This document shows, piece by piece, positions 2,427-60,539 of a stretch of 64,000 nt of DNA (position 1 is its first letter; each line of letters starts with the position of its first letter). The position numbers were made by a program, and so were the translations under genes. Origin of the DNA: Vicinamibacterales bacterium (GTDB taxonomy: Bacteria > Acidobacteriota > Vicinamibacteria > Vicinamibacterales > SCN-69-37); the NCBI GenBank assembly GCA_035512575.1, contig DATKDT010000152.1, positions 965-64,964 on the forward strand, written 5' to 3'. The notes beneath the pieces were generated by a model. That model ran no database searches, had not been told where the DNA came from, and saw only the letters and a program-made list of their open reading frames with translations.

Positions 2427-3044
2427 TCAGAAGTTAATCACGATCCCACCCGTCCACATCGATCCATCGCGCGACAGCCGCAGGTGGTCCATGAGCGACC
2501 CGGCGCCGGGGATGCCGAAGGCGCCCGCGCCGTGGTCCAGGCCGGGCTCGTCGTCGCCGAACCGGATGAACGTGTAGCGGTAGTCGGCGAACAGCGACGC
2601 CCGCGCTCCCAGCTTCAGGTCGCCGCCGAAGCCGGCGTGATATCCCATGCGGCGCACGGTGGACTGCGAGAGGACGTCGGCGCCCGACAGCGCCTCCATG
2701 CGCTGGGAGTACCAGCCCACGCCTCCAAGCAGATACGGCGCAATGGCCGCGCGCACCGGATAGAGCATCAGCGAGGCCTGGAGCGGATAGTCGCTGATCC
2801 GCACGGTCGCGTCGTCGCTCGTCGTGGATCGCCAGTCCATGGCCAGCTCGATCGCGGTGCGGGGCGACGTTTTCAGGCGGAGGGCACCGCCCGTGTAGCG
2901 GTCGCTGGCGGTGCCGAGCGCGGGATCGGGCCGCACGAAGCTCATGCGCGGGCCGACGCCGAGAACCTGCGCGGACGCGGGCGACGGAAGAAACGCGAGC
3001 GCCGAGAGGACCGCGAGCGCGGCCGCCGGACGGCAGATGTACAT
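2427..3044 (-). CDS. Outer-membrane beta-barrel protein (OmpW/OmpA-barrel-like porin family)
   Basis: Start at ATG 3044, preceded by GGAGG. Signal peptide MYICRPAAALAVLSALAFLPSPASAQ, alternating beta-strand pattern, and C-terminal aromatic residue (..GGIVINF). Confidence 0.75.
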   Translation of the reverse strand: MYICRPAAALAVLSALAFLPSPASAQVLGVGPRMSFVRPDPALGTASDRYTGGALRLKTSPRTAIELAMDWRSTTSDDATVRISDYPLQASLMLYPVRAAIAPYLLGGVGWYSQRMEALSGADVLSQSTVRRMGYHAGFGGDLKLGARASLFADYRYTFIRFGDDEPGLDHGAGAFGIPGAGSLMDHLRLSRDGSMWTGGIVINF

Positions 3045-3067
3045 GAAAAAGCCTCCGACACAGGTAT

Positions 3068-3303
3068 CGGAGGTTCGGGTTGCACACTTTAGCAAGTTCG
3101 GGGGTTCGGAAGTTCGGGGGTTCGCTTGTCCCGGTTCGGCGAGCACGATCGGAAGCAGGAGGCGCTACCCTGCGACGAGCGACGGGCTGCACGCTGCGCT
3201 CCCCAGTACAACGTGCAGCTTTAACCCCCTGCTCCCGATCGAGCCCGCGAACCAGACCCGCGAACCTCCGAACTTCCGAACCCCGAACCTCCGAACTTCG
3301 AAC
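3068..3303. repeat. About 235-bp imperfect palindrome; outer arms are GTTCGGR tandem repeats and the centre holds an 8-bp stem hairpin (3186-3219)
   Basis: Left arm AAGTTCGGGGGTTCGGAAGTTCGGGGGTTCG...CCGGTTCGGCGAGCACGATCGGAAGCAGG pairs with right arm CCTGCTCCCGATCGAGCCCGCGAACCAG...CGAACCTCCGAACTTCCGAACCCCGAACCTCCGAACTTCGAAC. It exactly fills the gap between the OmpA-like stop codon and the OMP gene's SD. Confidence 0.8.
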
Positions 3304-3947: not shown

Positions 3948-3970
3948 GGTCTCTCCTCCATCTCCCCTGT

Positions 3971-25536: not shown

Positions 25537-26434
25537 CGACCTGGCCGCTCTGTCTCACGCTGACGATGAGAATGCCGAGGGCGATGATGGCGGCCGCCAC
25601 CAGCATACGCGCGCCGAACGGCTCGCCGAGCAGCAGCGTGCCGAGCGCCACGGCAATCACCGGATTCACGTACGTGTAGAGCGACACGGTCGACACCGGA
25701 AGATGCTTCAGCGCGTAGGCGTAGGCGGTGTAGGCCGCAATCGAGCCGGCCACGGTCAGGTACGCGAGCGCCAGGGTCGTCTTGCCGTTGAAGGCGAGGC
25801 GCGGCCACTCGCCCGCGACGGTGGCGAACAGCAGCATCCACGCGCCGCCGAACACCATCTGCAACGCGGCGGACGCGAGCACATCGGTGGAGTGGGTGAA
25901 GCGCTTCGCGTACGTGGAGCCGATCGCCCAGCCGACGCACGCCAGTTGCAGCGCCAGCACGCCGGCGCCGAAACGCGACCCGGCATCCGCCGACGCGAGC
26001 AGATCGGGCCACACCAGCACGAGAATGCCGCCGAAGCCGACGATGAGGCCGACGATCTGGCGGAGCCTGAGCCGCTCGCCGCCCGGCCAGAGGCTCTCGA
26101 TGCCGGTCATCCAGAAGGGCGAGGTGGCAATCAGCACGGCGGCAAGACCGCTCGGCACGAACTGCTCGCCATACGTCACGCCGCCGTTGCCCAGGCCGAG
26201 CATGAAGAAGCCGATGAAGGCGAGTGACGGCCACGAAGAGCGCGGCGGCAGCGGCGTGCCGCGCATCCACAGCGCGAGCGCCAGCACGACGCCGGCGGTG
26301 GTGTAGCGGATGCCGCCCATGGCCATGGGCGGAATCGTCTCGAGCGCGATTTTGATCGCGAGGTACGTCGTGCCCCAGATCAGGCACACCGCTGCGAAGG
26401 CGATGTAGGCGCGCCGGCGCACCACGGGACTCAT
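25484..26434 (-). CDS. EamA/DMT-family transporter
   Basis: 316 aa with 10 TM segments in two EamA repeats; N-terminus CLIWGTTYLAIK. The start ATG overlaps the Lrp stop (ATGA). Confidence 0.85.
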   Translation of the reverse strand: MSPVVRRRAYIAFAAVCLIWGTTYLAIKIALETIPPMAMGGIRYTTAGVVLALALWMRGTPLPPRSSWPSLAFIGFFMLGLGNGGVTYGEQFVPSGLAAVLIATSPFWMTGIESLWPGGERLRLRQIVGLIVGFGGILVLVWPDLLASADAGSRFGAGVLALQLACVGWAIGSTYAKRFTHSTDVLASAALQMVFGGAWMLLFATVAGEWPRLAFNGKTTLALAYLTVAGSIAAYTAYAYALKHLPVSTVSLYTYVNPVIAVALGTLLLGEPFGARMLVAAAIIALGILIVSVRQSGQVVGKDAVIVDPVPVRRAS

Positions 26435-26919
26435 GACGCCGCCTGTTCGGCAGGCGCGTCGGGCATCGGCAGCTGGTGCGTTTCCTTCAGGGTGCCGAGG
26501 ACGATCGTCGTGCGGGTGGAGCGCACGCCGCTGATGCGGCCGATGCGGCCCTTCAGCAGCTCGCCGAGATGCTCCGCGTCGCGCGCGCGGACCTTCACGA
26601 GAAAACAGTCGTCGCCGGCGACGTGGTGCACTTCGAGCACTTCCGGAACCTGGCCGAGCGACGCGGCGACCGAGTCCTCTTCCTCCGGCGCCTCCTTCGT
26701 GCGCACGGCCACGAACGCGAGCAGGCCGAGGCCGAGCGCTTTCGGGCTCACGAGCGCCGCATAGCCGCGGATGACGCCTCTGGCTTCGAGCTTCCGGATG
26801 CGCTCGAGCACGGCCGACGGCGCCAGCCCCACCTCCCGGGAAATTTCCACCTGGGTGACACGGCCGTTGCGTTGAAGAGCATCGATGATACTGATGTCTA
26901 TGGCGTCTAGTTCAGACAT
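26431..26919 (-). CDS. Lrp/AsnC family transcriptional regulator
   Basis: N-terminal HTH D.ID..II..LQ.NGR....EIS..VGLAPSAV..RI..LE..GVI, plus a C-terminal RAM/AsnC_trans_reg domain. Confidence 0.9.
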   Translation of the reverse strand: MSELDAIDISIIDALQRNGRVTQVEISREVGLAPSAVLERIRKLEARGVIRGYAALVSPKALGLGLLAFVAVRTKEAPEEEDSVAASLGQVPEVLEVHHVAGDDCFLVKVRARDAEHLGELLKGRIGRISGVRSTRTTIVLGTLKETHQLPMPDAPAEQAAS

Positions 26920-26952
26920 ATATTCTTATAAACAGCTTATTATCAGAATATA
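26920..26952. promoter_or_regulatory. AT-rich promoter/operator region of the Lrp-EamA operon with inverted repeat ATATTCT-N18-AGAATAT
   Basis: This is the only strongly AT-rich stretch for kilobases. On the minus strand TATAAG lies 5 nt upstream of the ATG, with no SD. Confidence 0.35.
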
Positions 26953-27003
26953 TTTCCGTCAAGCTGCTTCAGCTCAGGCGTGGCACTGCCGTTGCTAGGA
27001 GGG

Positions 27004-27073
27004 GCGCGAGGAGCGGCGCGGGGCGATGGGGCCCCGCGAGCGACGAGCCTGGCGGGGTGCAGGGGCCCCCGCC
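27004..27073. repeat. 70-bp GC-rich double-hairpin REP-like element, copy A
   Basis: GCGCGAGGAGCGGCGCGGGGCGATGGGGCCCCGCGAGCGACGAGCCTGGCGGGGTGCAGGGGCCCCCGCC. Two hairpins: CGCGGGG..CCCCGCG and GGCGGGG..CCCCGCC. Its reverse complement recurs at 30600-30670. Confidence 0.85.
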
Positions 27074-27093
27074 ACTAGTAACGGGAGGAACGA

Positions 27094-27243
27094 ATGCTCG
27101 AAACCATTGCCATCATTCTGATCGTGCTGTGGCTGCTGGGTCTGGTCAGCGGCAACACGATGGGCAACTTCATCTACGTGCTGCTGGTGATCGCGATCGT
27201 GCTGCTGCTGGTGCGGTTCATGGGCGGCCGCGGCCGGATTTGA
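27094..27243 (+). CDS. lmo0937-family small membrane protein (49 aa)
   Basis: MLETIAIILIVLWLLGLVSGNTMGNFIYVLLVIAIVLLLVRFMGGRGRI, with GGGAGG 6 nt upstream. Too short for the ORF track. Confidence 0.7.
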   Translation: MLETIAIILIVLWLLGLVSGNTMGNFIYVLLVIAIVLLLVRFMGGRGRI

Positions 27244-28222
27244 AGAACACCCGTTTCAGCCGTGAGTGATACGGCGTAAACGGGCCCGCGCCGTCGTCCT
27301 CGGCGATGTGGCGACTGACCTGGTGCAGCCTGGCATCGAGGTCGTCGCACGTCGCGAGGATGAAGGCCTCGATGGTCATCGGCTCGACCGGCGAGCCGAA
27401 TTCGCGCGAGCCGTGATGCGACAGGATCAGGTGCTCGATCTCGGTCAGCAAATCTGGCGGGAAGTCAGGAAGGCCCGCCGCCGCGTCGCGCACCATCATC
27501 ACGCCGAGCGTGATGTGCCCCACCAGGTTCCCTTCCACCGAGTACTGCGTCGCGGTGTCGTACGCCAGCTCCTGCAGCTTGCCGATGTCGTGCAGGATTA
27601 CCCCGGCTACGAGCAGGTCGCGCTTCGCGCCGTAGGCCTCGCCCAGCGCCGTCGTGGTCTCGACGAGCTTCAGCACGTGCTCGAGCAGGCCGCTCCGATA
27701 GGCGTGATGCACCGTTTGCGCGGCCGGCCAGATCCGGAGTTTCTCGCCATGCGTCTCGAGCATGCGCGTGAGGAGGGCCCGCACGTGGCCGTCGCCCACG
27801 CCGCCGACGTGGGCCTCGAGCGCGGCCCACATCTCGTCGGGCGAATGCGGCGAGGCGCGGATGCAGTCCTCCTCGCGGAAGCCGTCGAGCCGATCGCGGT
27901 TCGCGTCGACGCGGCGGATCTTGTCGAGCAGCAGCTCGAGGCGCTGGTTGTAGACGCTCCCCCGCCCCTGCACCTTGACGAACTCGCCGGCCTCGAACTC
28001 GTGCCGCAGCGTGTCGACGTCGTTGAAGACCTTCGCGGCGATTTCGCCCGAGACGTCCTGCAGGACGACGGAGAGAAACTCGCCCCCGTTGCGTCCCGTG
28101 CGCACGTCCTTGCGCACGCAGAGGTAGAACCCGGTTCCGGACGACTGCGCCTGCAGCATCGCCACCTGCGGCAGCCGCCCGCCCCCGCGTCCGCCCTCGC
28201 CGAAGAGTTCCATGTCTCGCAT
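27218..28222 (-). CDS. OB-fold plus HD-domain 3'-5' exoribonuclease YhaM-like protein
   Basis: ATG 28222 overlaps the upstream TAA (TAATG). N-terminal OB fold (FLSVVLQDVSGEIAAKVF) and HD domain (HHAYRSGLLEHV...ILHDIGK...SHHG). Confidence 0.8.
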   Translation of the reverse strand: MRDMELFGEGGRGGGRLPQVAMLQAQSSGTGFYLCVRKDVRTGRNGGEFLSVVLQDVSGEIAAKVFNDVDTLRHEFEAGEFVKVQGRGSVYNQRLELLLDKIRRVDANRDRLDGFREEDCIRASPHSPDEMWAALEAHVGGVGDGHVRALLTRMLETHGEKLRIWPAAQTVHHAYRSGLLEHVLKLVETTTALGEAYGAKRDLLVAGVILHDIGKLQELAYDTATQYSVEGNLVGHITLGVMMVRDAAAGLPDFPPDLLTEIEHLILSHHGSREFGSPVEPMTIEAFILATCDDLDARLHQVSRHIAEDDGAGPFTPYHSRLKRVFFKSGRGRP

Positions 28223-29019
28223 TACGACTTGTCCAGGAATCCGAAAGGTCCCGCGCCGAGCCACTGGCCGCCGTCGACCGTCAGCACGTCGCCAGTGATG
28301 TAGGCGGCGTGCGGCGAAACGAGAAACGCGACGGCGTCCGCAATCTCGCCCGGCTTGCCCCATCGCTTCAACGGCACCGACCGCGTAAGGCGCTCGACCA
28401 TCTCGGGCGTGTTCCACAGCTGCTTTGCCGCGCCGGGTGACTCGATCGGCCCGGGCGCCACGCCGTTGACGCGGATGCCGTGCGGCGCCCATTCCACGGC
28501 CAGCGTCTGCGTCATGGCCATCACCCCCGCCTTCGCCGCGGCCGAATGCACCGTGCCGGCGCTGCCCGTCCAGGCGTACGTCGCCAGAATCGACACGATC
28601 GATCCCCCGCCGCCGCGCGCAATCATGTGCCGCCCCACCGCGCGCGAACAGTAGAAGCTGCCGTTGAGGACGATGTTGATGACGGCGTTCCAGCCGTTGG
28701 GCGACAGATCCTCCGCGCGGCAAATGAAATTGCCGGCGGCGTTGTTGACGAGGATGTCGACGCGGCCGAACCGCTCGACGGCCTCGCCGACCATGCTATC
28801 GACCTGGTCGGGCTGGCGGACGTCCACCTGCACCGCAAGCGCCTCGATGCGGTCCCCCGCCAGCGCCGCGGCGCCTGCATCGAGGTGCTCCGTGCTGCGG
28901 CTGGCAATGACGACGCGGGCGCCGAGCGCGCCGAGACGGCGCGCGATGGCCAGGCCGAGGCCCGTGCCCCCGCCGGTGACGAGCGCGACCTGATCGCGAA
29001 AGAGGGAGTCGGTGAACAT
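28222..29019 (-). CDS. SDR-family oxidoreductase (2,4-dienoyl-CoA reductase-like)
   Basis: ATG 29019 gives MFTDSLFRDQVALVTGGGTGLGLAIA; also NNAAGNF and the active-site context SAAKAG. The upstream 41 codons of the ORF overlap the divergent kinase gene. Confidence 0.85.
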   Translation of the reverse strand: MFTDSLFRDQVALVTGGGTGLGLAIARRLGALGARVVIASRSTEHLDAGAAALAGDRIEALAVQVDVRQPDQVDSMVGEAVERFGRVDILVNNAAGNFICRAEDLSPNGWNAVINIVLNGSFYCSRAVGRHMIARGGGGSIVSILATYAWTGSAGTVHSAAAKAGVMAMTQTLAVEWAPHGIRVNGVAPGPIESPGAAKQLWNTPEMVERLTRSVPLKRWGKPGEIADAVAFLVSPHAAYITGDVLTVDGGQWLGAGPFGFLDKS

Positions 29020-29027
29020 GAACAGTC

Positions 29028-29037
29028 TTATTATCAA
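29028..29037. promoter_or_regulatory. AT-rich island (TTATTATCAA) shared by the divergent SDR and hybrid-kinase genes
   Basis: The -10-like hexamers TATTAT/TATCAA (plus strand) and GATAAT/TAATAA (minus strand) lie 7-10 nt from ATG 29045 and ATG 29019. Confidence 0.3.
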
Positions 29038-29044
29038 TCCGCCG

Positions 29045-30550
29045 ATGCCCGCGTCGCGACTTCTTCGATTGTTCGACCAGGTTCCCCAAGGCATCTTCAC
29101 CGGCGCGGTGGACGCGGCCGGGTGCGCGACCGACTCGGCCAATCCCTACCTCAAACTGATGTTCGGGCTGGCGGCCGACACGCCCGACGCCGAGGCGCAG
29201 CCGTTCGCGCCCGATCGGTTCGTCGACGCGCAGGCGCGCGAGGCCTTCCTCGAGCGCCTCGGCCGCGACGGCACGGTCCGCGACTACCTGCTGCGGATGC
29301 GCCGCGCCGACGGGTCGCCCTTCTGGGTGGAAGTCACCGCGATTGCCGAGCCGGACAGCGCGGGCCTGTCGGTCGAGGCGCTGATCCGCGACGTCAGCGA
29401 GCGCAAGAAGCTCGACGACCAGGCGAAGGACGTCTACCACCAGCTGCTGCAGGCCGAAAAGCTCGCGTCGCTGGGCCAGACCATCTCCGGCGTCGCGCAC
29501 GAGCTGAACAACCCGCTCGCGGCGATTCTCACATGGGCCGAGCGCCTCTCGGGATCGCCGTCGCCCGACACCACCGCCAAGGGCGTCGACGCCATCCTCA
29601 CGCAGGCCGAGCGCGCCGCCCGGATCGTGCGCAACCTGCTCACGTTCGCCCGCAAGCGCCACACGACGCGCGCCATGGTCGATCTCAATCACGTCGTGCG
29701 CGAGACGCTCGCGCTGCGCGCCTACGAGCAGCGCGTCAGCAACGTGATGATCATCGAGGCGCTCGCCGCCGGGCTGCCGCAGGTCTTTGCCGACCCGCAC
29801 CAGGTGCAGCAGGTGCTGCTCAATCTCGTCATCAACGCCGAACAGGCCATGCTCGGCGCCAACGGGCGCGGCACGCTGATCGTGCGCACGTGGCACGAGC
29901 CGGATCGCGACGCTGTGGTGCTCGAGGTGAACGACGATGGGCCCGGCGTGCCCGAAGATGTGCGGCCGAAGATCTTCGACCCGTTCTTCACGACGAAGGA
30001 AGTGGGAAAAGGCACCGGACTCGGGCTGACGGTGGCCTACGCCATCGTGCAGGAGCACGGCGGGCGGCTGCGGGTGGAATCGGAGCGCGGCCGCGGCGCG
30101 TCGTTCATCATCGAGCTGCCGGTGGGCGGGATGGCGGTGCGCACGCCGGCCCAGCCAAGCGCGCCGGCGCCCGCCGAGATTCCCGCCGGCTCCACCGCGC
30201 TCATCGTCGAAGACGAGGCCGCGCTGCGGGCGGCCGTCGGCGACGCGCTGACCGACGCGGGCTTCACGGTGGACCGCGCCGGCGACGGCGAGGAGGCGCT
30301 CGCGAAGGTGCGGGAGCGCGACTACGACCTGATCGTGTGCGATCTGAAGATGCCGCGCCTCGACGGCCCGGCGTTCTTCGCCGTGCTGTCGGACGAGAAG
30401 CCCGCCCTCGCCCGCCGCGTCGTGTTCGTCACAGGCGACGTCGCCGGCACCGAAGCCGAGCGCTTCCTGGACGCGAGCGGCTGCCGCTGGCTCGCGAAGC
30501 CGTTCCGCCTACGCGATCTTCTGCGACTGGCGCGAGAGACCCTGCGCTGA
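29045..30550 (+). CDS. Hybrid PAS sensor histidine kinase with C-terminal receiver domain
   Basis: PAS region, H-box GVAHELNNPLAAI, N/G boxes LNLVINAEQA, DDGPGVP and GTGLGLTV, then REC (ALIVEDE...DLIVCDLKMPRLDG...AKPF). The ORF is open from GTG 29012 and ATG 29018. ATG 29045 is preferred because the earlier starts overlap the divergent SDR start codon. Confidence 0.85.
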   Translation: MPASRLLRLFDQVPQGIFTGAVDAAGCATDSANPYLKLMFGLAADTPDAEAQPFAPDRFVDAQAREAFLERLGRDGTVRDYLLRMRRADGSPFWVEVTAIAEPDSAGLSVEALIRDVSERKKLDDQAKDVYHQLLQAEKLASLGQTISGVAHELNNPLAAILTWAERLSGSPSPDTTAKGVDAILTQAERAARIVRNLLTFARKRHTTRAMVDLNHVVRETLALRAYEQRVSNVMIIEALAAGLPQVFADPHQVQQVLLNLVINAEQAMLGANGRGTLIVRTWHEPDRDAVVLEVNDDGPGVPEDVRPKIFDPFFTTKEVGKGTGLGLTVAYAIVQEHGGRLRVESERGRGASFIIELPVGGMAVRTPAQPSAPAPAEIPAGSTALIVEDEAALRAAVGDALTDAGFTVDRAGDGEEALAKVRERDYDLIVCDLKMPRLDGPAFFAVLSDEKPALARRVVFVTGDVAGTEAERFLDASGCRWLAKPFRLRDLLRLARETLR

Positions 30551-31402
30551 CCCGCCGGCGTCGCGCGCCGGCATCGACGCCCTGGCCATCTTCAATTTCG
30601 GCGGGGGCCCCTGCACCCCGCCTAGCTCGGTCGCTCGCGGGGCCCCGACGCCCCGCTCCGCTCCCTGCGCACTCGCTGTTTCGTGCAGGCCAACATCCGC
30701 GGCCAGCAGGCGCTTGAGGCGGTCGAGCGCGCGCGCGTGCAGCTGCGACACACGCGACTCGTTCACGCCAATCTCGCCGCCAATCTGCTTCATCGTAGCC
30801 TCGGCGAAGTAGTACATCGAGACGATCTTCCGCTCGCGCGGCGGCAGCGCGTTGATGGCGCAGCGCACGCGATCCTTCACTTCCTGCGTTTCGAATGCCT
30901 TCTCAGGCGACGGCGGCTCGCTCGGAACAAGCACGGCCGGCAGCGACGCGCCGTCGATCGACTCGGCCGACGCCATCGGCGACGTCGACTCGATCGTGTG
31001 GATGCGGACGATGGTGCGCTCGAGGCGCGCGACGTCGGTGCCGACGCGCGTGGCGAGATCCTGCATGGACGGCTCGGCGCCGTTCTCGCGCCGCAGCGAC
31101 TCGCGGGCGGCTTCGAGCTCGCGGCGCTGGCGGCGCACGCCGCGCGGCCAGGCGTCCTTGCGCAGCGCGTCGATCATGGCGCCGCGCACGCGGCGCTCGG
31201 CGAAGGTCTCGAACTTGATGCCCCGCGCCTTGTCGAAGCGGCGCGCCGCGTCAATCAGGCCCAGCATGCCGTCCTGCACCAGATCGCCAATGTCGATCGA
31301 GTTTGGCATCGTCGCGGCGACGCGGCGGGCCAGCGATTCCACGAAGGGCAGGCTCTGGGCGATACGGTCACGTTCGGCGGCGGCCAATGGCTGTCGGGAC
31401 AT
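30509..31402 (-). CDS. Group-3 sigma-70 family factor (FliA/WhiG/SigB-like) with an atypical ~55-aa C-terminal extension
   Basis: Region 2 DLVQDGMLGLIDAARRFD..FETFAERRVRGAM and region 4 LPPRERKIVSMYYF...IGVNESRVSQLHARALDRLK. The tail is encoded by REP copy B and overlaps the kinase 3' end by 42 nt. Confidence 0.8.
   Translation of the reverse strand: MSRQPLAAAERDRIAQSLPFVESLARRVAATMPNSIDIGDLVQDGMLGLIDAARRFDKARGIKFETFAERRVRGAMIDALRKDAWPRGVRRQRRELEAARESLRRENGAEPSMQDLATRVGTDVARLERTIVRIHTIESTSPMASAESIDGASLPAVLVPSEPPSPEKAFETQEVKDRVRCAINALPPRERKIVSMYYFAEATMKQIGGEIGVNESRVSQLHARALDRLKRLLAADVGLHETASAQGAERGVGAPRATELGGVQGPPPKLKMARASMPARDAGGSAQGLSRQSQKIA
30600..30670. repeat. 70-bp GC-rich double-hairpin REP-like element, copy B (inverted relative to copy A)
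   Basis: GGCGGGGGCCCCTGCACCCCGCCTAGCTCGGTCGCTCGCGGGGCCCCGACGCCCCGCTCCGCTCCCTGCGC. About 62 of 71 positions match the reverse complement of 27004-27073. Confidence 0.85.
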
Positions 31403-31607
31403 TCGAACTCCTTGGAAAGTTGCGGGGAGCCCTAGCGCAACCGGACAGCCAACTCTCCAATTGAGATTTGACGATGTGCGACTTCAGATCTAAGAGCTTT
31501 AGATTGAGTGATTTACAGGCATCTGATGCCTGTGAAGAGGCGCGCAGTTACGGGCGATTTTGCGTCAATTTGTTGGCAGGGGGTGTCAAAGCGTCGGAAG
31601 TTTGACG

Positions 31608-31853
31608 CTATTTAGCGTTCGATGGGCCTGTTTCGGCGAGCTTTCTGATTTCGGCAGCCGTCGCCATGGCGTCGAGCGCGCTGCTGACGACCTGGGCCGC
31701 GCGCGAGCGGGTGGCGTCGTCGGCCGCGCGGGCCTCGAGCAGCTCGGCATTGGCCAGCACGATGCCGAGCTGGTTGTTGAGCTGGTGAAAGAGCCGGCCG
31801 ATGTCGCGGGTGTCCGCCACCTGGAGCCGTTCCCCTCTGTGATGCGCGATCAC
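31608..31853 (-). CDS. 81-aa stand-alone histidine-kinase DHp/H-box domain protein (no ATPase domain)
   Basis: GTG at 31853 overlaps the TGA of the upstream HTH gene (GTGA). Sequence ..DIGRLFHQLNNQLGIVLANAELLE.. closely mirrors the H-box of the neighbouring kinase (VAHELNNPLAAILTWAERL). A second helix follows. Confidence 0.5.
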   Translation of the reverse strand: MIAHHRGERLQVADTRDIGRLFHQLNNQLGIVLANAELLEARAADDATRSRAAQVVSSALDAMATAAEIRKLAETGPSNAK

Positions 31854-32059
31854 GCCGAAACGCTGTTCTTGCGGCTGCTCCACCCGGCGCGCCGCTCCGG
31901 CTCGCGCCAGAGCGTGTCGACGAAGATCCGGACCGACCCCCCGGCCGTGCGCACGTACTCGACTTTGCCGTTGGCGATCCAGTTGTAGATGGTGCGGCGG
32001 CTGACGCCGACCAGCTCGCACGCCTTCATGATCGAGATGGTTTTGCGTTCGACAATCAT
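31850..32059 (-). CDS. Excisionase/MerR-superfamily helix-turn-helix DNA-binding protein (69 aa)
   Basis: ISIMKACELVGVSRRTIYNWIANGKVEYVRTAGGSVRIFVDTL. AGGA lies 9 nt upstream of ATG 32059. Confidence 0.7.
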   Translation of the reverse strand: MIVERKTISIMKACELVGVSRRTIYNWIANGKVEYVRTAGGSVRIFVDTLWREPERRAGWSSRKNSVSA

Positions 32060-32132
32060 GACAAGTCCTCGCAGGCATCTATCGGCATTTGCGCGCAGGG
32101 CTGCAGGGTGTCAAAATGCCGCCACCTGTCCG

Positions 32133-33551
32133 ATGGCCGATCCCTGGCATCTTCTGCTCGTCGACGATGAGAAAGCCTTTCGCGAGGCGATTGCGGAGCA
32201 GCTGGCCGATCGGGGCTTCGTCGTGACGCAGGCGGCCGACGGCACGAGCGCCCTCGACCGCCTCTCCGAGTTTGCCTACGACATCGTCGTCACCGATCTG
32301 CGGCTGCCCGGCGCCGACGGGCGGAAGGTGCTGCAGGAGGCGCGGGCGCGCTACCCCGACATCATCGCGATCGTCATCACGGGCTACGGCACGGTGAAGG
32401 ACGCGGTCGAGCTGATCAAGCAGGGTGCGAGCGACTTCATCACGAAGCCGTTTCAGTTCGACGGGCTGCTGCACGTGATCGAGGCGGCGCTCGAGCAGCG
32501 TCGCCTGCGCGCCGAGAACGACTACCTGCGATCGCAGCTCGACGACCGGTACCGGATCGACGGCATCGTCGGCAAGAGCGACGCGATGCACGGGCTGTTT
32601 CAGCTGCTCCACACGGTGGCCGACTCGCCCGCGACGGTGCTGATCACGGGCGAGACGGGCACGGGCAAGGAGCTGGCCGCGCGCGCGATCCATCACGCGA
32701 GCTCGCGGCGCGCGCAGCGCTTCGTCGCGCTCAATTGCAGCGCCATCCCTGAAACGCTGCTCGAGGCCGAGCTGTTCGGGCACGTGCGGGGCGCGTTCAC
32801 GGGCGCGGTGGCCAACCGCCAGGGCAAGCTCGAAGCGGCGCATCGGGGCACGCTGTTCCTCGACGAGGTGGGGACGATGAGCGCGGCGCTGCAGGCGAAG
32901 CTGCTGCGCGTGCTGCAGGAGCGCGAGTTCGAGCGCGTGGGCGACTCGCAGACGGTCAAGGTGGACGTGCGCGTCATCGCGGCCACGCATGCCGATCTCC
33001 AGAAGATGGTGACGGAAGGGCAGTTCCGCGAGGATCTGTTCTATCGCCTGAACGTCGTACCGGTGCGGATGCCGCCGCTGCGCGAGCGGCGCGACGACAT
33101 TCCGCTGCTGGTGCAGCACTTCCTGGTGAAGCTCGCGCGCGACGCGGCAGGACGCAAGGACAGGAACGGTTCGGCCGCCGGCCCGTCAACGGCCTCGCAA
33201 GACGCCATGCGCCAGTTGATGACGTATGACTGGCCCGGCAACGTGCGGCAGCTCGAGAATGTGATCGAGCGCCTGTTCACGCTGCTGCCGAAGCGCGCGC
33301 AGATCGAGGTCGCCGATCTGCCCGACGACATCCGCGGGGCGTCGCCGGGCGCGGCATCGGCGGTGCATGAGGACGCCATGCCCGACCACGGCGTCGATCT
33401 GGATGGCTATCTCTCGAACGTGGAGCTGATGCTGATCAGGAAAGCGCTGGATCGCACGAGTGGCAACAAGCGGCGCGCGGCGGACCTGCTGCAGATCAAG
33501 CGGACGACGCTGATCGAAAAACTGAAACGGCTCGAGCGACTGGGAAACTGA
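32133..33551 (+). CDS. Sigma-54-dependent Fis-family response regulator (NtrC class)
   Basis: REC (LLLVDDE...VVTDLRLPG...TKPF), AAA+ (GETGTGKE, GAFTGA, ESELFGH-like ELFGHVRGAFTG, RVIAAT) and a C-terminal Fis HTH (NKRRAADLLQIKRTTL). Confidence 0.9.
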   Translation: MADPWHLLLVDDEKAFREAIAEQLADRGFVVTQAADGTSALDRLSEFAYDIVVTDLRLPGADGRKVLQEARARYPDIIAIVITGYGTVKDAVELIKQGASDFITKPFQFDGLLHVIEAALEQRRLRAENDYLRSQLDDRYRIDGIVGKSDAMHGLFQLLHTVADSPATVLITGETGTGKELAARAIHHASSRRAQRFVALNCSAIPETLLEAELFGHVRGAFTGAVANRQGKLEAAHRGTLFLDEVGTMSAALQAKLLRVLQEREFERVGDSQTVKVDVRVIAATHADLQKMVTEGQFREDLFYRLNVVPVRMPPLRERRDDIPLLVQHFLVKLARDAAGRKDRNGSAAGPSTASQDAMRQLMTYDWPGNVRQLENVIERLFTLLPKRAQIEVADLPDDIRGASPGAASAVHEDAMPDHGVDLDGYLSNVELMLIRKALDRTSGNKRRAADLLQIKRTTLIEKLKRLERLGN

Positions 33552-33557
33552 GGGCGC

Positions 33558-34556
33558 ATGTCACGGGCGGCGTATTGGACGATCGTTGCGGGAGGGCAGC
33601 CGACGGCCTTTCGCGGGCGCGACAGGGAAGATCTGCTGCCGACGCTGAAACAGCTGCAGAGCAAGCAGCCGGATGCCGCGATCGTGTGGTTCGAGCGCGG
33701 CAAGGTGTTTCCGACGCGCGAGGCGGCGCTGGAGGACCGGCGGGGTCCGCGCGAGCGGAGGCCGCGCGACTGGCGGCCCGGCGGCGATCACAAGGATCCG
33801 CGCGCGAAGTACGACGTGCCGCGCGACCAGAAACGGGCGCGCTTCAGGCAGCTGGCGCAGAAGCGGCGCATGCGCGACGAGGAGCCGGGCGATCGCGGCG
33901 GCTTCGATCCCTTTGCCGAACGGCCGCGGAAGCCGTTCGGCGAGCGGCCGCCACGCGAGAATCCGCCACGCGAGAATCGGCCGCCACGCGAGAATCGTCC
34001 GCCGCGCGAGAATCGTCCGCCGTTCGGCGATCGACGGCCCGCGGGCGGGGGAGAGCGCAGTCCGTTCGGCGACCGGCGACCGGCGGGAGGCGACCGGCGT
34101 CCCGCAGGCGGTGGCCGCGGGAGGTGGCAGGACAGGGAAGGCGGCGATCGCCGCCCGGCCGGCGGCGCGCGCAAGCCTGGCGGGTGGGGAAGCGGCCGTC
34201 CGCAAGGCGCGGGGCGCGGGCCTGGAACCGGACGCCCGCCTGGCGGGCCGGGACGGCCGCCCGGAGGCCCGGGAGTGGGGCGCGGACCTGGAATGGGCCG
34301 TCCGCCCGGAGGCCGTCCGCCCGGAGGCCGTCCGCCTGGAGGCCTGGGGCGATCACCTGCCGGTGGACGCGGGCCGGGGTCGAGCCGGCCCGGCGGCCCC
34401 GGACGGCCGGGGGGAGGCGGCAGGCCGCCTGGCGGCAGGGGACCCGGAGGACCCGCAGGACGTGGGCCCGGCGGGCGTGGACCAGGCGGACGCGCGCCGG
34501 GTGGCCGCGGGCCCGGTGGCCGCGGCCCAGGAGGCCGCGGGGGCGGCCGCGGGTGA
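33558..34556 (+). CDS. Arg/Gly/Pro-repeat low-complexity protein with a ~100-aa ordered N-terminal region (hypothetical)
   Basis: N-terminus MSRAAYWTIVAGGQPTAFRGRDREDLLPTLKQLQSKQPDAAIVWFERGKVF has ordinary composition and G/C-rich third positions. It is followed by PRENRP x4, FGDRRPAGG x2, GRPPGG and GPGGR arrays. It starts 7 nt after the regulator's stop, and its TGA overlaps the GTG of the next gene. Confidence 0.6.
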   Translation: MSRAAYWTIVAGGQPTAFRGRDREDLLPTLKQLQSKQPDAAIVWFERGKVFPTREAALEDRRGPRERRPRDWRPGGDHKDPRAKYDVPRDQKRARFRQLAQKRRMRDEEPGDRGGFDPFAERPRKPFGERPPRENPPRENRPPRENRPPRENRPPFGDRRPAGGGERSPFGDRRPAGGDRRPAGGGRGRWQDREGGDRRPAGGARKPGGWGSGRPQGAGRGPGTGRPPGGPGRPPGGPGVGRGPGMGRPPGGRPPGGRPPGGLGRSPAGGRGPGSSRPGGPGRPGGGGRPPGGRGPGGPAGRGPGGRGPGGRAPGGRGPGGRGPGGRGGGRG

Positions 34557-34903
34557 TCGCGCACGTCATCCTGTTTCGTCCCAAAGCCGATCTCGACGAT
34601 GCCGGCCGGGCGCGCCTGTTCGACGCCATGCGCGCGGCGCACCGCGCGATTCCGCGGATCGCGCGGTTCGTCGTCGGGCAGCGCGTGAAGAACGGCCGGC
34701 CCTACGAAGCGCTCGCGCGCGACTTTCCTTTCTTTGCGCTGCTGGAATTCGAGACGCAGGCCGACTTCGACGCGTATGTATCGCACCCCGCGCACGAGGA
34801 GCTCGGGGCGCAGTTCTATCTGGCGAGCGAGGCGGCGGAGGCCTACGACTTCGAGACGGGCGACATGCCCGGCGCGCTCGACGGTCTCAGGCAGGAACGG
34901 TAA
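34553..34903 (+). CDS. Dabb (stress-responsive alpha/beta-barrel) domain protein
   Basis: VIAHVILFRPKADL...FALLEFETQADFDAYVSHPAHEEL. GTG overlaps the upstream TGA (GTGA). It is in frame with ORF 33575..34903, whose upstream part is a low-complexity shadow. Confidence 0.75.
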   Translation: MIAHVILFRPKADLDDAGRARLFDAMRAAHRAIPRIARFVVGQRVKNGRPYEALARDFPFFALLEFETQADFDAYVSHPAHEELGAQFYLASEAAEAYDFETGDMPGALDGLRQER

Positions 34904-35933
34904 CGCCGAAGAAGCGGACGATGATGTCGCGCAGATGGTCGATCGACTCGGCGGAGTTGATGGCGACGCGCAGCTGCGACCCGCCTTCGATCCCCTTCGT
35001 GTACCACGAGTTCAGCGCGCGCAGCTTGTTGATCACCCACTTGCGGCGTCCACGCGGCGTCTGATCGTCCGGCGCGATCGGCGCCTGGCCCGGAGCGCTA
35101 TGGCGGAAGCCGTCGCGCTCGCCGACGCGCTCGGCCAGCAGCAGATCGATGTACTCGAGCAGGAACAGGCCGCGCTCTTCCATCGTGATCTCGCGAGGCG
35201 CGCGTCCCGCCGCAAGCGCGTGCGCCTGCTCGAAGATCCACGGATTGCGCAGCGCGCCGCGGCCCACCAGCACGCCAGAGACGCGGGTGCTGCGCAGGCG
35301 GTCCACCATCTGCGACGCCTCGACGCAGTCGCCGCTGCCGAACACCGGAATGTCGAGCGACCCGGCGATCCGGTCGATGAGATCCCAGTCCGACACGCCC
35401 GAATAGGACTGCGCGGCGGTCCGGCCGTGGACGGCCACACCCGCCGCGCCGGCGTCCTCGGCCATGCGGGCCAGCACGGGCGCGTTGATCTCGGCGTCGT
35501 TCCACCCGGCGCGCATCTTCACGGTCACCGGAATCTTCACGGCGTCGACCATTGCCCTGATCACCGCTGCGGCATGCTCCGGCTCGCGCATCAGGCTGCA
35601 GCCCGCGTTGTGCTTCGCGATCTTCGGGACGGGGCAGCCCATGTTGATGTCGACCGCGTCGGCGCCCATGCCCTCGACGATTCGCGCGGCGTCGGCCATC
35701 TTCGCCGGGTCGCCGCCGAAGATCTGAATCGACACCGGCCGCTCCTCTTCCGTGTACTCGGCGAACTCCAGCGTGCGATCGATCCCGCGCACGAGCCCCT
35801 CGGAGCTGACCATCTCGGTGACGACCAGCCCGCACCCGCCGCGGCGCTTGACGAGCCGCCGGAACGCGGTATCGGTCATGCCCGCCATCGGAGCCATTGC
35901 GAACGGTGACTGAAGCGGAAGGTGCTTGGCCAA
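34887..35933 (-). CDS. dus: tRNA-dihydrouridine synthase (Dus family)
   Basis: APMAGMTDTAFR, DINMGCP and VTVKMR motifs. TTG start at 35933; alternative ATG 12 codons downstream. Confidence 0.85.
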   Translation of the reverse strand: MAKHLPLQSPFAMAPMAGMTDTAFRRLVKRRGGCGLVVTEMVSSEGLVRGIDRTLEFAEYTEEERPVSIQIFGGDPAKMADAARIVEGMGADAVDINMGCPVPKIAKHNAGCSLMREPEHAAAVIRAMVDAVKIPVTVKMRAGWNDAEINAPVLARMAEDAGAAGVAVHGRTAAQSYSGVSDWDLIDRIAGSLDIPVFGSGDCVEASQMVDRLRSTRVSGVLVGRGALRNPWIFEQAHALAAGRAPREITMEERGLFLLEYIDLLLAERVGERDGFRHSAPGQAPIAPDDQTPRGRRKWVINKLRALNSWYTKGIEGGSQLRVAINSAESIDHLRDIIVRFFGVTVPA

Positions 35934-35936
35934 AAG

Positions 35937-35972
35937 ATTCTGTATTCTGCGTTCTGTGTTCTGCGTTCTGTC
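35937..35972. repeat. GTTCTGY heptamer tandem repeat between the NusG-paralog stop and the dus start
   Basis: GATTCTGTATTCTGCGTTCTGTGTTCTGCGTTCTGTC. Confidence 0.8.
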
Positions 35973-36468
35973 AGTACGCCCGGACGTCGGCCGCGTCCAC
36001 TTCGACCGATACGCCCTGGCCGATCAACTCGACCGACAGCACGAGCCGCGCGTGCGATCCCTTTCGCACGAGGCGGCCGACGACGCCCTTGAGCGGGCCG
36101 TGGGTGACTTCAACCATGTCTCCCTCGTGAATGAGCGGACAGGGATCGTAGGCCAGCTCGCTTTCGACCAGCGTCCGGATGCCGGCGATCTCGGAGTCGG
36201 GAATCGGCGCCGGCTCGCCGTCGAACGACACGATGTTGACCACGCCGGTGCACTTGAGCACCGGCAGGCGATCCACCGCCGGGAACTTCGCGAAGCAATA
36301 GCCGGGAAACAGCGGCCACTCGATCTGCTTCTTGCGGTCTTTCCACCGGCTCCACTTGAGGATCGTCGGCAGAAACGTCTCGAGCCCCTTGCGCTCGAGC
36401 TGCTCGCGGACGACCTGCTCGTGGCGCGAGCGCGTCCAGATGGCAAACCAGGGAGCGTCGACGGGCAT
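35971..36468 (-). CDS. NusG-like transcription antitermination paralog (RfaH/UpxY-type: NGN plus KOW)
   Basis: ATG 36468 overlaps the upstream TGA. NGN segment WFAIWTRSRHEQVVREQLERKGLETFLP and KOW segment GDMVEVTHGPLKGVVGRLV. Confidence 0.75.
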   Translation of the reverse strand: MPVDAPWFAIWTRSRHEQVVREQLERKGLETFLPTILKWSRWKDRKKQIEWPLFPGYCFAKFPAVDRLPVLKCTGVVNIVSFDGEPAPIPDSEIAGIRTLVESELAYDPCPLIHEGDMVEVTHGPLKGVVGRLVRKGSHARLVLSVELIGQGVSVEVDAADVRAY

Positions 36469-37550: not shown

Positions 37551-37577
37551 GGCTGTAACTTTCTGTGTATCAGTATC

Positions 37578-41162
<3,585 letters not shown>

Positions 41163-60460: not shown

Positions 60461-60493
60461 ATTTCCACAACTGTGGAAATTATTGTGGAAAAC
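60461..60493. other. Three DnaA-box-like 9-mers upstream of dnaA (ATTTCCACA / TGTGGAAAT palindrome plus TGTGGAAAA)
   Basis: ATTTCCACAACTGTGGAAATTATTGTGGAAAA. Each box matches the TTATCCACA consensus at 7-8 of 9 positions. Confidence 0.6.
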
Positions 60494-60539
60494 GAAGGTT
60501 TCGCCTTTTGAGGCGAAAATTACGCGGTTTCAGGCTCGA

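What the first reader, a model, noticed from the sequence alone, without database searches (positions are those of the whole stretch)
29045..33551. Locus-level hypothesis: four-step phosphorelay wired to two alternative sigma systems
Within 4.5 kb lie all the parts of an H1-D1-H2-D2 relay.
- A hybrid PAS kinase (HisKA plus REC).
- A group-3 sigma factor.
- The HTH and bare-DHp pair.
- A sigma54-dependent NtrC-class response regulator, divergent from the HTH gene.

The bare DHp protein supplies H2. The relay output would feed a sigma54 activator, with a second, FliA-like sigma factor encoded in between. No flagellar or chemotaxis genes are present to explain that sigma factor. I know of no described system with this composition.
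Basis: inference. Interest (0 to 1): 0.55.

Follow-up and report, generated by a model that had tools for sequence, protein, structure and literature searches.

The report
Sigma-54 to sigma-28 cascade cassette
A gene cassette conserved across a major group of soil bacteria (Vicinamibacteria) appears to link a sensor kinase, through a sigma-54 activator, to a flagellar-type sigma factor that has no flagellar genes nearby and that in turn switches on two tiny regulators, one of them a stripped-down kinase core of unknown role.

Summary
They are a soluble PAS hybrid histidine kinase, a FliA/WhiG-family sigma factor, a 69-aa excisionase-type HTH protein, a 70-aa His-bearing DHp-like helical hairpin, and an NtrC-type sigma-54 activator.

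The five genes keep their order and orientation in 67 of 67 Vicinamibacteria genomes with enough flanking sequence. They stay together in a lineage where the order is rearranged.

The wiring differs from the one proposed. Conserved non-coding motifs put the two sigma systems in series:
- A canonical sigma-54 promoter lies upstream of the sigma gene in 79 of 80 loci. Tandem GYCAA-N4-TTGRC palindromes sit about 155 bp upstream of it.
- A sigma-28-type promoter (CTAMAG-N15-17-CCGATA) precedes the HTH and DHp-like operon. It also precedes an outer-membrane beta-barrel gene elsewhere in the window.

So the sigma factor has identifiable non-flagellar targets, and the DHp-like protein lies at the bottom of the cascade.

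It is unresolved whether the DHp-like protein is the H2 of a four-step relay, a feedback phosphatase or phosphate drain, or a kinase inhibitor. I found no description of this cassette. I class it as a new variant of known kinds.

The parts
29012..30550 (+). Soluble hybrid histidine kinase (PAS, HisKA, HATPase_c, REC), 512 aa. Convergent with the sigma gene; the two tails overlap by 42 bp.
   Evidence: Pfam domains. Conserved at this position in 73 of 73 loci. Receiver phospho-Asp conserved in 82 of 82 best hits, 5 of which are hits to the NtrC receiver on short contigs.
30509..31402 (-). FliA/WhiG-family (group 3, sigma-28-type) sigma factor, 297 aa.
   Evidence: TIGR02479 195 bits against a cut-off of 189.6. 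Best solved relatives are the 6pfv/6pfj sigma chain (recalled as WhiG, not checked) and FliA. Present in 76 of 76 loci.
31437..31451 (-). Sigma-54 (-24/-12) promoter TGGCTGTCCGGTTGC. The element ends 34 bp before the sigma start codon at 31402.
   Evidence: TGGY-N7-TTGC is present at this place in 79 of 80 loci. The strict form TGGYAY-N5-TTGC is present in 74 of 80, against a background of 0.044 per kb. It is kept in the rearranged lineage L082.
31564..31577 (.). 14-bp palindrome GCCAACAAATTGAC (GYCAA-N4-TTGRC), the putative enhancer (UAS) for the NtrC-type activator. It lies about 120 bp upstream of the -12 element (from window coordinates).
   Evidence: It is the only exact match in the 64-kb window. 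It occurs in this intergenic region in 61 of 80 loci, at 3.2 per kb against 0.11 per kb background. It is often tandem, 29-33 bp apart, centred 131-196 bp (median 155) from the -12 element. A copy also sits just upstream of ntrC in two different gene arrangements.
31608..31820 (-). DHp-like small protein, 70 aa (81 aa if translated from the GTG at 31853 that overlaps the HTH stop codon). A two-helix hairpin with the motif LFH(R/Q)LNNQLGIILANAELLE.
31850..32059 (-). Excisionase/MerR-like HTH_17 DNA-binding protein, 69 aa. Tightly coupled to the DHp-like gene.
   Evidence: Present in 78 of 78 loci, at 67-97% identity.
32080..32106 (-). Sigma-28 (FliA)-type promoter CTGCAG-N15-CCGATAG. The CCGATA element starts 26 nt before the HTH start codon.
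   Evidence: The strict motif CTA[ACT]AG-N15-17-CCGATA occurs 52 times in 2.2 Mb of loci (both strands), and 51 of these are upstream of the HTH gene.
32133..33551 (+). NtrC-type sigma-54 enhancer-binding response regulator (REC, AAA+ with GAFTGA, Fis-type HTH). Divergent from the HTH gene, with a 73-bp intergenic region.
   Evidence: Present in 73 of 73 loci.
33558..34556 (+). Protein X, starting 6 nt after the ntrC stop codon. It has a conserved N-terminal region of about 95 aa and, in this genome, a P/R/G-rich repetitive tail of about 220 aa. Function unknown; possibly part of the module.
34553..34903 (+). Dabb (stress-responsive alpha/beta barrel) protein. The start is approximate. Follows X in 53 of 84 loci.
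3065..3092 (-). Second sigma-28-type promoter, CTAAAG-N16-CCGATA, 20 nt upstream of an outer-membrane beta-barrel gene.
   Evidence: (0.03 matches expected by chance). The promoter is kept upstream of all 3 homologues found in metagenomes.
2427..3044 (-). Outer-membrane beta-barrel protein, 205 aa, with a signal peptide and a C-terminal Phe. A putative member of the sigma-28-type regulon.
   Evidence: The OMP_b-brl match is marginal, E 2e-6 and 28.5 bits against a cut-off of 28.7.

Best explanation
This is a self-contained transcriptional cascade cassette of the class Vicinamibacteria.

Proposed mechanism:
1. A cytoplasmic PAS hybrid histidine kinase controls the phosphorylation state of the adjacent NtrC-type activator.
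2. The activator binds tandem GYCAA-N4-TTGRC palindromes about 155 bp upstream of a sigma-54 promoter and switches on the gene for a FliA/WhiG-family sigma factor.
3. That sigma factor transcribes, from CTAMAG-N15-17-CCGATA promoters, the adjacent HTH and DHp-like operon. It also transcribes at least one outer-membrane beta-barrel gene elsewhere.
4. The DHp-like protein is a HisKA core reduced to its helical hairpin. It keeps the His and the Asn at H+4, the position needed for phosphatase activity in HisKA kinases. It has lost the acidic H+1 residue needed for autokinase activity, and it has no ATP-binding domain.
5. Because it is made only after the cascade has fired, I favour a feedback role on the receiver domains. 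It would dephosphorylate the activator or drain phosphate back from it, possibly through the kinase's own receiver. I consider an obligatory forward H2 role less likely.

What is shown here: gene content, co-conservation, and the presence, position and specificity of the promoter and enhancer motifs.

What is inferred:
- which protein uses which motif;
- the pairing of kinase and regulator;
- the direction of any phosphoryl flow through the small protein;
- the input signal and the physiological output, probably related to the cell envelope.
For: Synteny:
- All five genes are in the same arrangement in 67 of 67 loci.
- They stay together, in a different order, in L082-L084. There the kinase and ntrC form one operon.

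Sigma-54 promoter and enhancer:
- The promoter lies upstream of the sigma gene in 79 of 80 loci, against a background of 0.044 per kb.
- It is kept in L082 as TGGCACCCCCGTTGC.
- The palindromes are about 30-fold enriched, tandem at 29-33 bp, and 131-196 bp from the -12 element.
- One exact copy occurs in the 64-kb window, at the expected place.
- A copy travels with ntrC in both gene arrangements.
- An AT-rich patch lies between the enhancer and the promoter.

Sigma-28-type promoter:
- 51 of 52 strict matches in 2.2 Mb of loci are upstream of the HTH gene.
- A second site in the window precedes an outer-membrane protein gene. It is conserved in 3 of 3 homologues.
- In L082 the promoter is absent, but the HTH and DHp-like genes directly follow the sigma gene under the sigma-54 promoter. 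Either way they are expressed with or after the sigma factor.

Sigma family.

DHp homology and residues:
- Homology.
- His in 276 of 277 members, Asn at H+4 in 277 of 277, an acidic residue at H+1 in 1 of 277.
- In HisKA kinases the acidic H+1 residue is needed for kinase activity and the Thr/Asn at H+4 for phosphatase activity (PMC3510030).
Against: - No transcription or phosphotransfer data exist. All promoter assignments are motif-based.
- The window's own -35 element (CTGCAG, N15) and its single enhancer copy are weaker than the class consensus.
- rpoN was not seen in the window.
- The palindrome could instead be bound by the HTH_17 protein.
- DHp homology is below Pfam's threshold, and the Foldseek E-values are not significant.
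- An almost invariant His fits a phosphotransferase at least as well as a phosphatase.
- Positive feedback on a relay component has precedents (from my own knowledge, spo0F and spo0A in Bacillus).
- A covariation analysis could not assign a partner.
Confidence: 0.5

Rival explanations
1. The kinase autophosphorylates (H1) and passes phosphate to its own receiver (D1). The DHp-like dimer then acts as a minimal Spo0B-like histidine phosphotransferase (H2) and hands it to the NtrC-type receiver (D2). Because H2 is made only downstream of D2, the circuit would be a positive-feedback switch.
For: - The hybrid kinase has a conserved receiver Asp and no HPt domain in the cassette.
- The kinase is also hybrid in the rearranged lineage.
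- The small protein keeps its His in 276 of 277 members.
- It aligns to the H-box of the kinase and folds as a DHp-like hairpin.
- All parts are strictly co-conserved.
Against: - The protein is not an HPt domain, and it lacks the second domain of Spo0B and ChpT.
- An acidic H+1 residue is absent from this family (1 of 277). From memory, not tested here, Spo0B and ChpT keep it.
- Its synthesis depends on the output it would be needed to produce, so basal expression would be required.
- In L082 the kinase and ntrC form an operon, like an ordinary cognate pair.
- There is no biochemical evidence.
Confidence: 0.28
2. The DHp-like protein inhibits the kinase by forming mixed four-helix bundles with the kinase's DHp, as RetS does with GacS. 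This would shut off signalling after induction without any phosphoryl chemistry of its own.
For: - The best structural match is the RetS-GacS DHp co-complex, 7n0e.
- The only profile match is to helix 1 of the neighbouring kinase's DHp.
- Its expression at the bottom of the cascade fits negative feedback.
Against: - Near-invariance of the His and invariance of Asn at H+4 are not required for simple dimer poisoning.
- The residues at the positions I recall (from memory, not checked here) as setting partner specificity on helix 1 differ from those of the kinase: G/A/N against A/T/W, read from the sequences.
- The Foldseek E-values are not significant.
Confidence: 0.12
3. The small helical hairpin is an anti-sigma factor for the FliA/WhiG-type sigma, analogous to FlgM or RsiG. 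Like flgM, it would be transcribed from a promoter dependent on the sigma factor it holds in check.
For: - It is encoded next to the sigma gene and behind a sigma-28-type promoter.
- The closest solved relative of the sigma factor is the sigma chain of entries 6pfv/6pfj. From memory, not checked here, these are Streptomyces WhiG bound to its helical anti-sigma factor RsiG.
Against: - There is no similarity to FlgM or RsiG. Neither a Pfam FlgM hit nor any FlgM or RsiG chain appeared in the profile searches of solved structures at E up to 10.
- The only detectable homology is to HisKA, with the catalytic His kept.
Confidence: 0.08
4. The genes are neighbours only through inherited synteny near the replication origin and do not form one system.
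For: - Flanking housekeeping genes (dus, a nusG paralogue, surA, mfd) are also often syntenic.
- All loci come from a single class.
Against: - The five genes stay together after a rearrangement that changes their order and strands.
- The non-coding motifs connect them to one another.
Confidence: 0.02

Closest known systems
Flagellar sigma-54 to sigma-28 hierarchy of Vibrio cholerae (RpoN with FlrA and FlrBC, then FliA)
   Same: An enhancer-binding protein and sigma-54 transcribe the gene for a FliA-family sigma factor, which then transcribes a last tier of genes. RpoN directly regulates flhFG-fliA (PMC3439928).
   Different: No flagellar or chemotaxis genes were found in the scanned ORFs of the window. 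The targets identified are a small HTH protein, a DHp-like protein and an outer-membrane protein. The kinase is a soluble hybrid PAS kinase. No FlgM was detected.
Chlamydia CtcB/CtcC with sigma-54, plus non-flagellar sigma-28
   Same: A non-flagellate uses an NtrC-type two-component system with sigma-54 together with a sigma-28 for non-motility genes, including membrane proteins. The sigma-28 target hctB rises when the CtcC ATPase domain is induced, although hctB has no sigma-54 promoter (PMC7482065).
   Different: In Chlamydia the components are dispersed, CtcC lacks a DNA-binding domain, and no sigma-54 promoter on the sigma-28 gene is reported in the passages I read. Here the link is encoded in a single cassette with an enhancer.
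Spo0B and ChpT, DHp-derived histidine phosphotransferases of four-step phosphorelays
   Same: A kinase-derived helical hairpin with a conserved His and no ATP-dependent autokinase activity, encoded alongside a kinase and a response regulator.
   Different: Spo0B and ChpT keep a C-terminal pseudo-ATPase domain (from my own knowledge). This protein is only the hairpin, about 65 aa. It has R/Q rather than an acidic residue after the His. Phosphotransfer is untested.
RetS-GacS DHp heterodimerisation
   Same: A DHp surface used to modulate another kinase. It is the best Foldseek match (7n0e).
   Different: RetS is a full-length hybrid kinase. The structural match is not statistically significant.
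Streptomyces WhiG with RsiG and BldC
   Same: A FliA-family sigma used for a non-flagellar programme. The closest solved sigma is the chain of 6pfv/6pfj, which I recall, not checked here, as WhiG. A roughly 68-aa excisionase-like regulator (BldC) exists in that organism.
   Different: The HTH protein fails the BldC family model, 23 bits against a cut-off of 77. There is no similarity to RsiG. Streptomyces has no sigma-54.

Membership tests
FliA/WhiG (sigma-28) sigma factors | Scores above the curated family cut-off (TIGR02479), with sigma-70 regions 2 and 4 | tested here: met
   195 bits against a cut-off of 189.6. Regions 2 and 4 present. The 6pfv/6pfj sigma chain and FliA are the best solved relatives.
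FliA/WhiG (sigma-28) sigma factors | Cognate promoters with TAAA-like -35 and GCCGATAA-like -10 elements | tested here: met
   CTAMAG-N15-17-CCGATA lies next to the sigma gene. 51 of 52 strict matches in 2.2 Mb of loci are at that place. A second conserved site precedes an outer-membrane protein gene. Use by this particular sigma is inferred.
FliA/WhiG (sigma-28) sigma factors | Controls flagellar or chemotaxis genes (for FliA proper) | not testable with these tools
   None in the scanned ORFs of the 64-kb window. The rest of the genome is not available.
NtrC-type bacterial enhancer-binding response regulators | REC, AAA+ sigma-54 interaction domain with GAFTGA, and a Fis-type HTH | tested here: met
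   GAFTGA read in the translation.
NtrC-type bacterial enhancer-binding response regulators | A -24/-12 target promoter with an upstream enhancer | tested here: met
   Promoter in 79 of 80 loci. Palindromes 131-196 bp upstream. Binding itself was not tested.
HisKA / DHp domain | Passes the Pfam HisKA gathering threshold | tested here: not met
   The window protein has no hit. 11 of 40 relatives hit below threshold, best E 0.0026.
HisKA / DHp domain | Profile-level homology, with the phospho-accepting His aligned | tested here: met
   hhalign probability 94.7%, E 6e-8, covering helix 1 only.
HisKA / DHp domain | H-box residues: His, acidic H+1, Thr/Asn at H+4 | tested here: inconclusive
   His in 276 of 277 and Asn at H+4 in 277 of 277, but an acidic H+1 in only 1 of 277.
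HisKA / DHp domain | Antiparallel two-helix hairpin | tested here: met
   AlphaFold2 model: helices 3-31 and 35-64, pLDDT 87.
HPt (PF01627) phosphotransfer domain | Match to the Hpt profile (four-helix-bundle monomer) | tested here: not met
   No Hpt hit at E up to 10. The model has only two helices.
Spo0B/ChpT-type phosphotransferases | DHp hairpin plus a C-terminal pseudo-ATPase domain | tested here: not met
   The conserved core is only a hairpin of about 65 residues in proteins of 55-182 aa. No second domain appears in the members aligned in A1 and A2.
Four-step His-Asp-His-Asp phosphorelay | H1, D1 and D2 present with catalytic residues | tested here: met
Four-step His-Asp-His-Asp phosphorelay | H2 accepts phosphate from D1 and donates it to D2 | not testable with these tools
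   Needs phosphotransfer profiling. The covariation analysis was uninformative.
FlgM / RsiG anti-sigma factors | Sequence similarity to either family | tested here: not met
   No Pfam hit, and no FlgM or RsiG chain in the profile searches of solved structures at E up to 10.
Excisionase/MerR-like HTH_17 | Passes the PF12728 and TIGR01764 cut-offs | tested here: met
   35.1 bits against 27; 41.6 against 28.8.
BldC family | Passes the NF033787 cut-off | tested here: not met
   23 bits against 77.

The most novel reading that the evidence does not exclude
The roughly 65-aa hairpin is a third structural class of histidine phosphotransferase: a bare DHp dimer, without the HPt fold and without the pseudo-ATPase domain of Spo0B and ChpT. 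It would carry phosphate from the receiver of the hybrid kinase to the sigma-54 activator. Because its own synthesis depends on the sigma-54 to sigma-28 cascade it feeds, the cassette would be a self-locking (bistable) developmental or envelope switch in one of the most abundant groups of soil bacteria.
Probability: 0.28. Interest if true: 0.75.

Novelty: new variant of a known kind. Interest (0 to 1): 0.58.

Why it matters
Vicinamibacteria (Acidobacteria subdivision 6) are, from my own knowledge, among the most abundant soil bacteria, and their regulation is almost unstudied.

This cassette yields a complete circuit hypothesis that can be tested directly:
- a sensor kinase;
- an enhancer-binding protein with a predicted binding site;
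- a sigma-54 promoter;
- a non-flagellar FliA-type sigma factor with a predicted promoter consensus and at least two targets;
- two lineage-specific small proteins.

It would show that the sigma-54 to sigma-28 hierarchy known from flagellar systems can be reused for a non-motility programme, probably related to the cell envelope. It also defines a new family of His-bearing DHp-only proteins, with 324 cluster representatives (clustered at 50% identity) and no Pfam model. Their biochemistry, whether phosphotransferase, phosphatase or kinase inhibitor, would extend the known repertoire of two-component accessory proteins.

Tried and rejected
- **Pfam, NCBIfam and PDB searches with the small protein.** Searches with the sequence and with its profile gave nothing significant. 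Only hhalign against the neighbouring kinase and sub-threshold HisKA hits in relatives support DHp homology.
- **Foldseek of the hairpin.** DHp domains rank first, but E is 0.4-3, which is not decisive for a 60-residue hairpin.
- **Covariation.** I compared the small protein with the kinase receiver, the NtrC receiver and the kinase DHp over 73 unique loci. The maximum APC-corrected mutual information was 0.27-0.36 with no interface pattern, so this was uninformative.
- **Sigma-54 reading of the region upstream of the HTH gene.** TGGCGGCATTTTGAC has the wrong spacing and lacks the GC at -12. I rejected it in favour of a sigma-28-type promoter plus a palindrome half-site.
- **IHF site.** The strict IHF consensus between enhancer and promoter occurs in only 2 of 80 loci. 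Only an AT-rich patch is supported.
- **Other scans.** No sigma-70 promoter or terminator matches in 28900-33700. No credible Rfam match in 26000-37000. No tRNA genes.
- **Literature.** Searches for DHp-only proteins and for this cassette in Acidobacteria found nothing relevant. The motility of cultured Vicinamibacteria could not be established from the papers held.
- **Protein X.** It has no Pfam family and no structural match.
- **Complex prediction.** I did not attempt a model of the small protein with a receiver domain. The structure tool takes single chains and reports no interface metrics.

Full report
**Source and context.** The window has about 68% G+C. The exact DHp-like protein is on record from a Vicinamibacterales metagenome-assembled genome, so the source is Acidobacteriota, class Vicinamibacteria. 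The window lies near the replication origin: dnaA is at 60483-61883, with yidC, mnmE, mnmG, parB and the ATP synthase operon nearby. None of the window ORFs I scanned is a flagellar or chemotaxis gene.

The region contains the following genes.
- 29012-30550 (+): a soluble hybrid kinase with PAS_9, HisKA, HATPase_c and REC domains.
- 30509-31402 (-): a sigma factor that passes the FliA/WhiG family cut-off, 195 bits against 189.6. Its closest solved relatives are the sigma chain of 6pfv/6pfj (recalled, not checked, as Streptomyces WhiG) and FliA, at E about 1e-36. RpoS and SigA reach about 1e-16.
- 31850-32059 (-): a 69-aa excisionase-type HTH_17 protein.
- 31608-31820 (-): a 70-aa ORF, MADTRDIGRLFHQLNNQLGIVLANAELLEARA.... 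It could also start at the GTG at 31853, which overlaps the HTH stop codon as GTGA.
- 32133-33551 (+): an NtrC-type regulator with REC, an AAA+ domain carrying GAFTGA, and a Fis-type HTH. It is divergent from the HTH gene across 73 bp.

**Is the small protein a DHp?** On its own it matches no Pfam or NCBIfam model and no solved structure by sequence. Four results support the call.
- A profile of the family aligns to the DHp of the neighbouring kinase's orthologues with probability 94.7% and E 6e-8. His12 falls on the phospho-accepting His.
- HisKA is the most frequent sub-threshold Pfam hit among more distant members, 11 of 40, best E 0.0026.
- AlphaFold2 predicts a two-helix hairpin, residues 3-31 and 35-64, pLDDT 87.
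- DHp domains (RetS/GacS, ZraS, CpxA, ERS1) head the Foldseek list, although with non-significant E-values.

The family is discrete.
- It has 3306 cluster representatives (clustered at 90% identity) at E up to 0.01.
- It has only 324 representatives at E up to 0.001 among the 1.84 billion in the 50%-identity library. All of these are 55-182 aa, and none is a full kinase.

Across 277 members the His is present in 276, the Asn at H+4 in all 277, and an acidic residue at H+1 in only 1; that position is R or Q in 261. In HisKA kinases the acidic H+1 residue is needed for kinase activity and the Thr/Asn at H+4 for phosphatase activity (PMC3510030). 'Bare DHp' is therefore a fair description. It is a divergent DHp, and it is neither an HPt domain nor a Spo0B/ChpT-type two-domain protein.

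**Co-conservation.** A scan of one genome per species found at least 359 genomes that encode a relative, and I examined the best 80.
- In every locus with enough flanking sequence (67 of 67) the arrangement is ntrC(-), then HTH(+), DHp(+), sigma(+), then kinase(-).
- In a diverged Vicinamibacteria lineage (L082-L084, proteins 58-69% identical) the order is sigma, HTH, DHp on one strand. The kinase and ntrC lie on the other strand as an operon.
- All five genes thus survive a rearrangement together.

**What the non-coding DNA shows: the sigma gene.**
- Upstream of the sigma gene, 79 of 80 loci carry TGGY-N7-TTGC. 74 of 80 carry the strict form TGGYAY-N5-TTGC.
- The strict form occurs only 98 times on both strands of the 1.1 Mb of loci examined (0.044 per kb of strand). 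75 of those sites lie at this place upstream of the sigma gene.
- The window's copy is TGGCTGTCCGGTTGC at 31437-31451.
- Centred 131-196 bp (median 155) upstream of the -12 element lie 14-bp palindromes GYCAA-N4-TTGRC. They occur in 61 of 80 loci, at 3.2 per kb against 0.11 per kb background. They are often in tandem, 29-33 bp apart.
- The window has exactly one exact copy in its 64 kb, at 31564-31577, about 120 bp upstream of the -12 element.
- An AT-rich patch lies 50-80 bp upstream of the -24 element.
- This is the classic layout of an enhancer-dependent sigma-54 promoter.
- The rearranged lineage keeps both the promoter (TGGCACCCCCGTTGC) and the palindrome upstream of the sigma gene.
- A further palindrome sits immediately upstream of ntrC in both arrangements. 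That argues the NtrC-type protein is the binder and is autoregulated.

**What the non-coding DNA shows: the HTH operon.**
- The window and all 78 loci with usable upstream sequence carry a sigma-28-type promoter upstream of the HTH gene, CTA(C/A/T)AG-N16-CCGATA(A/G/C). The window has CTGCAG-N15-CCGATAG at 32080-32106.
- Of 52 strict matches in 2.2 Mb of loci (both strands), 51 are at this place.
- In the window the N16 form occurs once more (0.03 expected by chance), 20 nt upstream of a 205-aa outer-membrane beta-barrel gene at 2427-3044.
- All three homologues of that gene found in metagenomes keep the promoter, including one only 49% identical.
- In L082 the CCGATA promoter is missing, but there the HTH and DHp-like genes directly follow the sigma gene behind the sigma-54 promoter.

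**Resulting model.**
1. The kinase sets the phosphorylation state of the NtrC-type activator.
2. The activator and sigma-54 transcribe the FliA-like sigma gene.
3. That sigma factor transcribes the HTH and DHp-like operon, an outer-membrane protein gene, and presumably more.

The two sigma systems are wired in series, as in the flagellar hierarchy of Vibrio cholerae, where RpoN directly controls fliA (PMC3439928). Here the cascade is detached from motility. The nearest non-flagellar parallel is Chlamydia, which has CtcB/CtcC with sigma-54 and a sigma-28 that controls late genes (PMC7482065).

**Role of the DHp-like protein.** This stays open. Three points count against an obligatory forward role:
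- the protein is produced only after the output has fired;
- the acidic H+1 residue is lost while the phosphatase-linked Asn is invariant;
- in L082 the kinase and ntrC look like an ordinary cognate operon.

I therefore rank the options as follows:
- a feedback role, as a receiver phosphatase or reverse-transfer drain: about 0.5, a figure that covers this whole explanation, cascade included;
- forward relay: about 0.28;
- DHp-DHp kinase inhibition, as in RetS/GacS: about 0.12;
- an anti-sigma role: about 0.08. There is no similarity to FlgM or RsiG.

The transcriptional cascade itself I hold at about 0.8. None of these options can be separated without biochemistry, and the covariation analysis was uninformative.

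**Extent of the module.**
- ntrC is followed after 6 nt by protein X (33558-34556). X has a conserved N-terminal region of about 95 aa with the invariant motifs PTAFR...LLPTLKQLQ and DWRPGGxHKDPR.
- X is found in 62 of 84 loci. It has no Pfam family and no structural match.
- A Dabb-domain protein follows in 53 of 84 loci.
- Both may belong to the module.

**Novelty.** Literature searches found no description of the cassette or of DHp-only proteins of this kind. Each element belongs to a known kind. New here are the combination, the non-flagellar sigma-54 to sigma-28 series connection encoded in one cassette, and the small His-bearing DHp-only family. My verdict is a new variant of a known kind, of moderate to good interest.

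Noticed in passing
window 2427-3092 (-): An outer-membrane beta-barrel gene (205 aa, signal peptide, C-terminal Phe) is preceded by a perfect sigma-28-type promoter, CTAAAG-N16-CCGATA. The promoter is conserved upstream of 3 of 3 metagenomic homologues (L085-L087). An OmpA/Pal-like lipoprotein gene (3303-4058) lies next to it.
   Followed up: yes
window 26981-26995 (+) and 27094-27243 (+): A canonical sigma-54 promoter, TGGCACTGCCGTTGC, lies about 100 nt upstream of a 49-aa DUF5670 membrane protein gene (MLETIAIILIVLWLLGLVSG...). Promoter and gene are conserved 4-7 kb from the cassette in 22 other loci. No GYCAA-N4-TTGRC palindrome lies upstream, so a different activator may control it.
   Followed up: partly
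window 33558-34903 (+): Protein X has a conserved N-terminal region and invariant PTAFR/LLPTLKQLQ and DWRPGGxHKDPR motifs. In this genome it also has a roughly 220-aa P/R/G-rich repeat tail (PRENRPP..., GRGPGG...). A Dabb-domain ORF follows. Both are conserved downstream of ntrC. X has no family or fold match.
   Followed up: partly
P0125 (147 aa) and P0138 (182 aa), from ENA contigs of about 445 kb: These look like single-chain fusions of the HTH and DHp-like proteins. They could be real fusions. They could also be frameshift artefacts of long-read assemblies. I did not resolve this.
   Followed up: no
L082-L084 (JGI and Logan metagenomes): A rearranged version of the cassette has sigma, HTH and DHp on one strand and the kinase and ntrC as an operon on the other. 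Here the DHp-like protein has an N-terminal extension of about 75 aa containing a conserved (D/E)LSRWLGPLSPAF motif.
   Followed up: partly
window 31403-31607, and loci: Between the enhancer and the sigma-54 promoter many loci show TTCAC-N6-TTCAC-like direct repeats and an AT-rich patch 50-80 bp upstream of the -24 element. The strict IHF consensus is present in only 2 of 80 loci. The repeats were seen by eye and not quantified.
   Followed up: partly
window 20349-21818 (-) and 22559-24334 (-); also 43804-44592 (-): Further signalling genes lie nearby: a PAS-PAS histidine kinase without a receiver, a GAF-GAF-SpoIIE (PP2C) phosphatase, and a second PP2C phosphatase.
   Followed up: no
window 9387-9401 (+): A third exact TGGCAC-N5-TTGC match lies at the very start of ORF 9386-9775. 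About 3 matches of the looser pattern are expected by chance in the window, so its significance is unknown.
   Followed up: no
L009, L058, L066, L068, L078: Contigs carrying the complete Vicinamibacteria-type cassette are labelled Bifidobacteriaceae, Bifidobacterium, Betaproteobacteria or Acidimicrobiia in their records. These are probably binning or labelling errors.
   Followed up: no
window 35971-41162 (-), and L082 1-4434: A NusG paralogue, SurA and Mfd lie beside the cassette in both the common and the rearranged arrangement. The window as a whole is close to dnaA and the replication origin (60483-61883).
   Followed up: no
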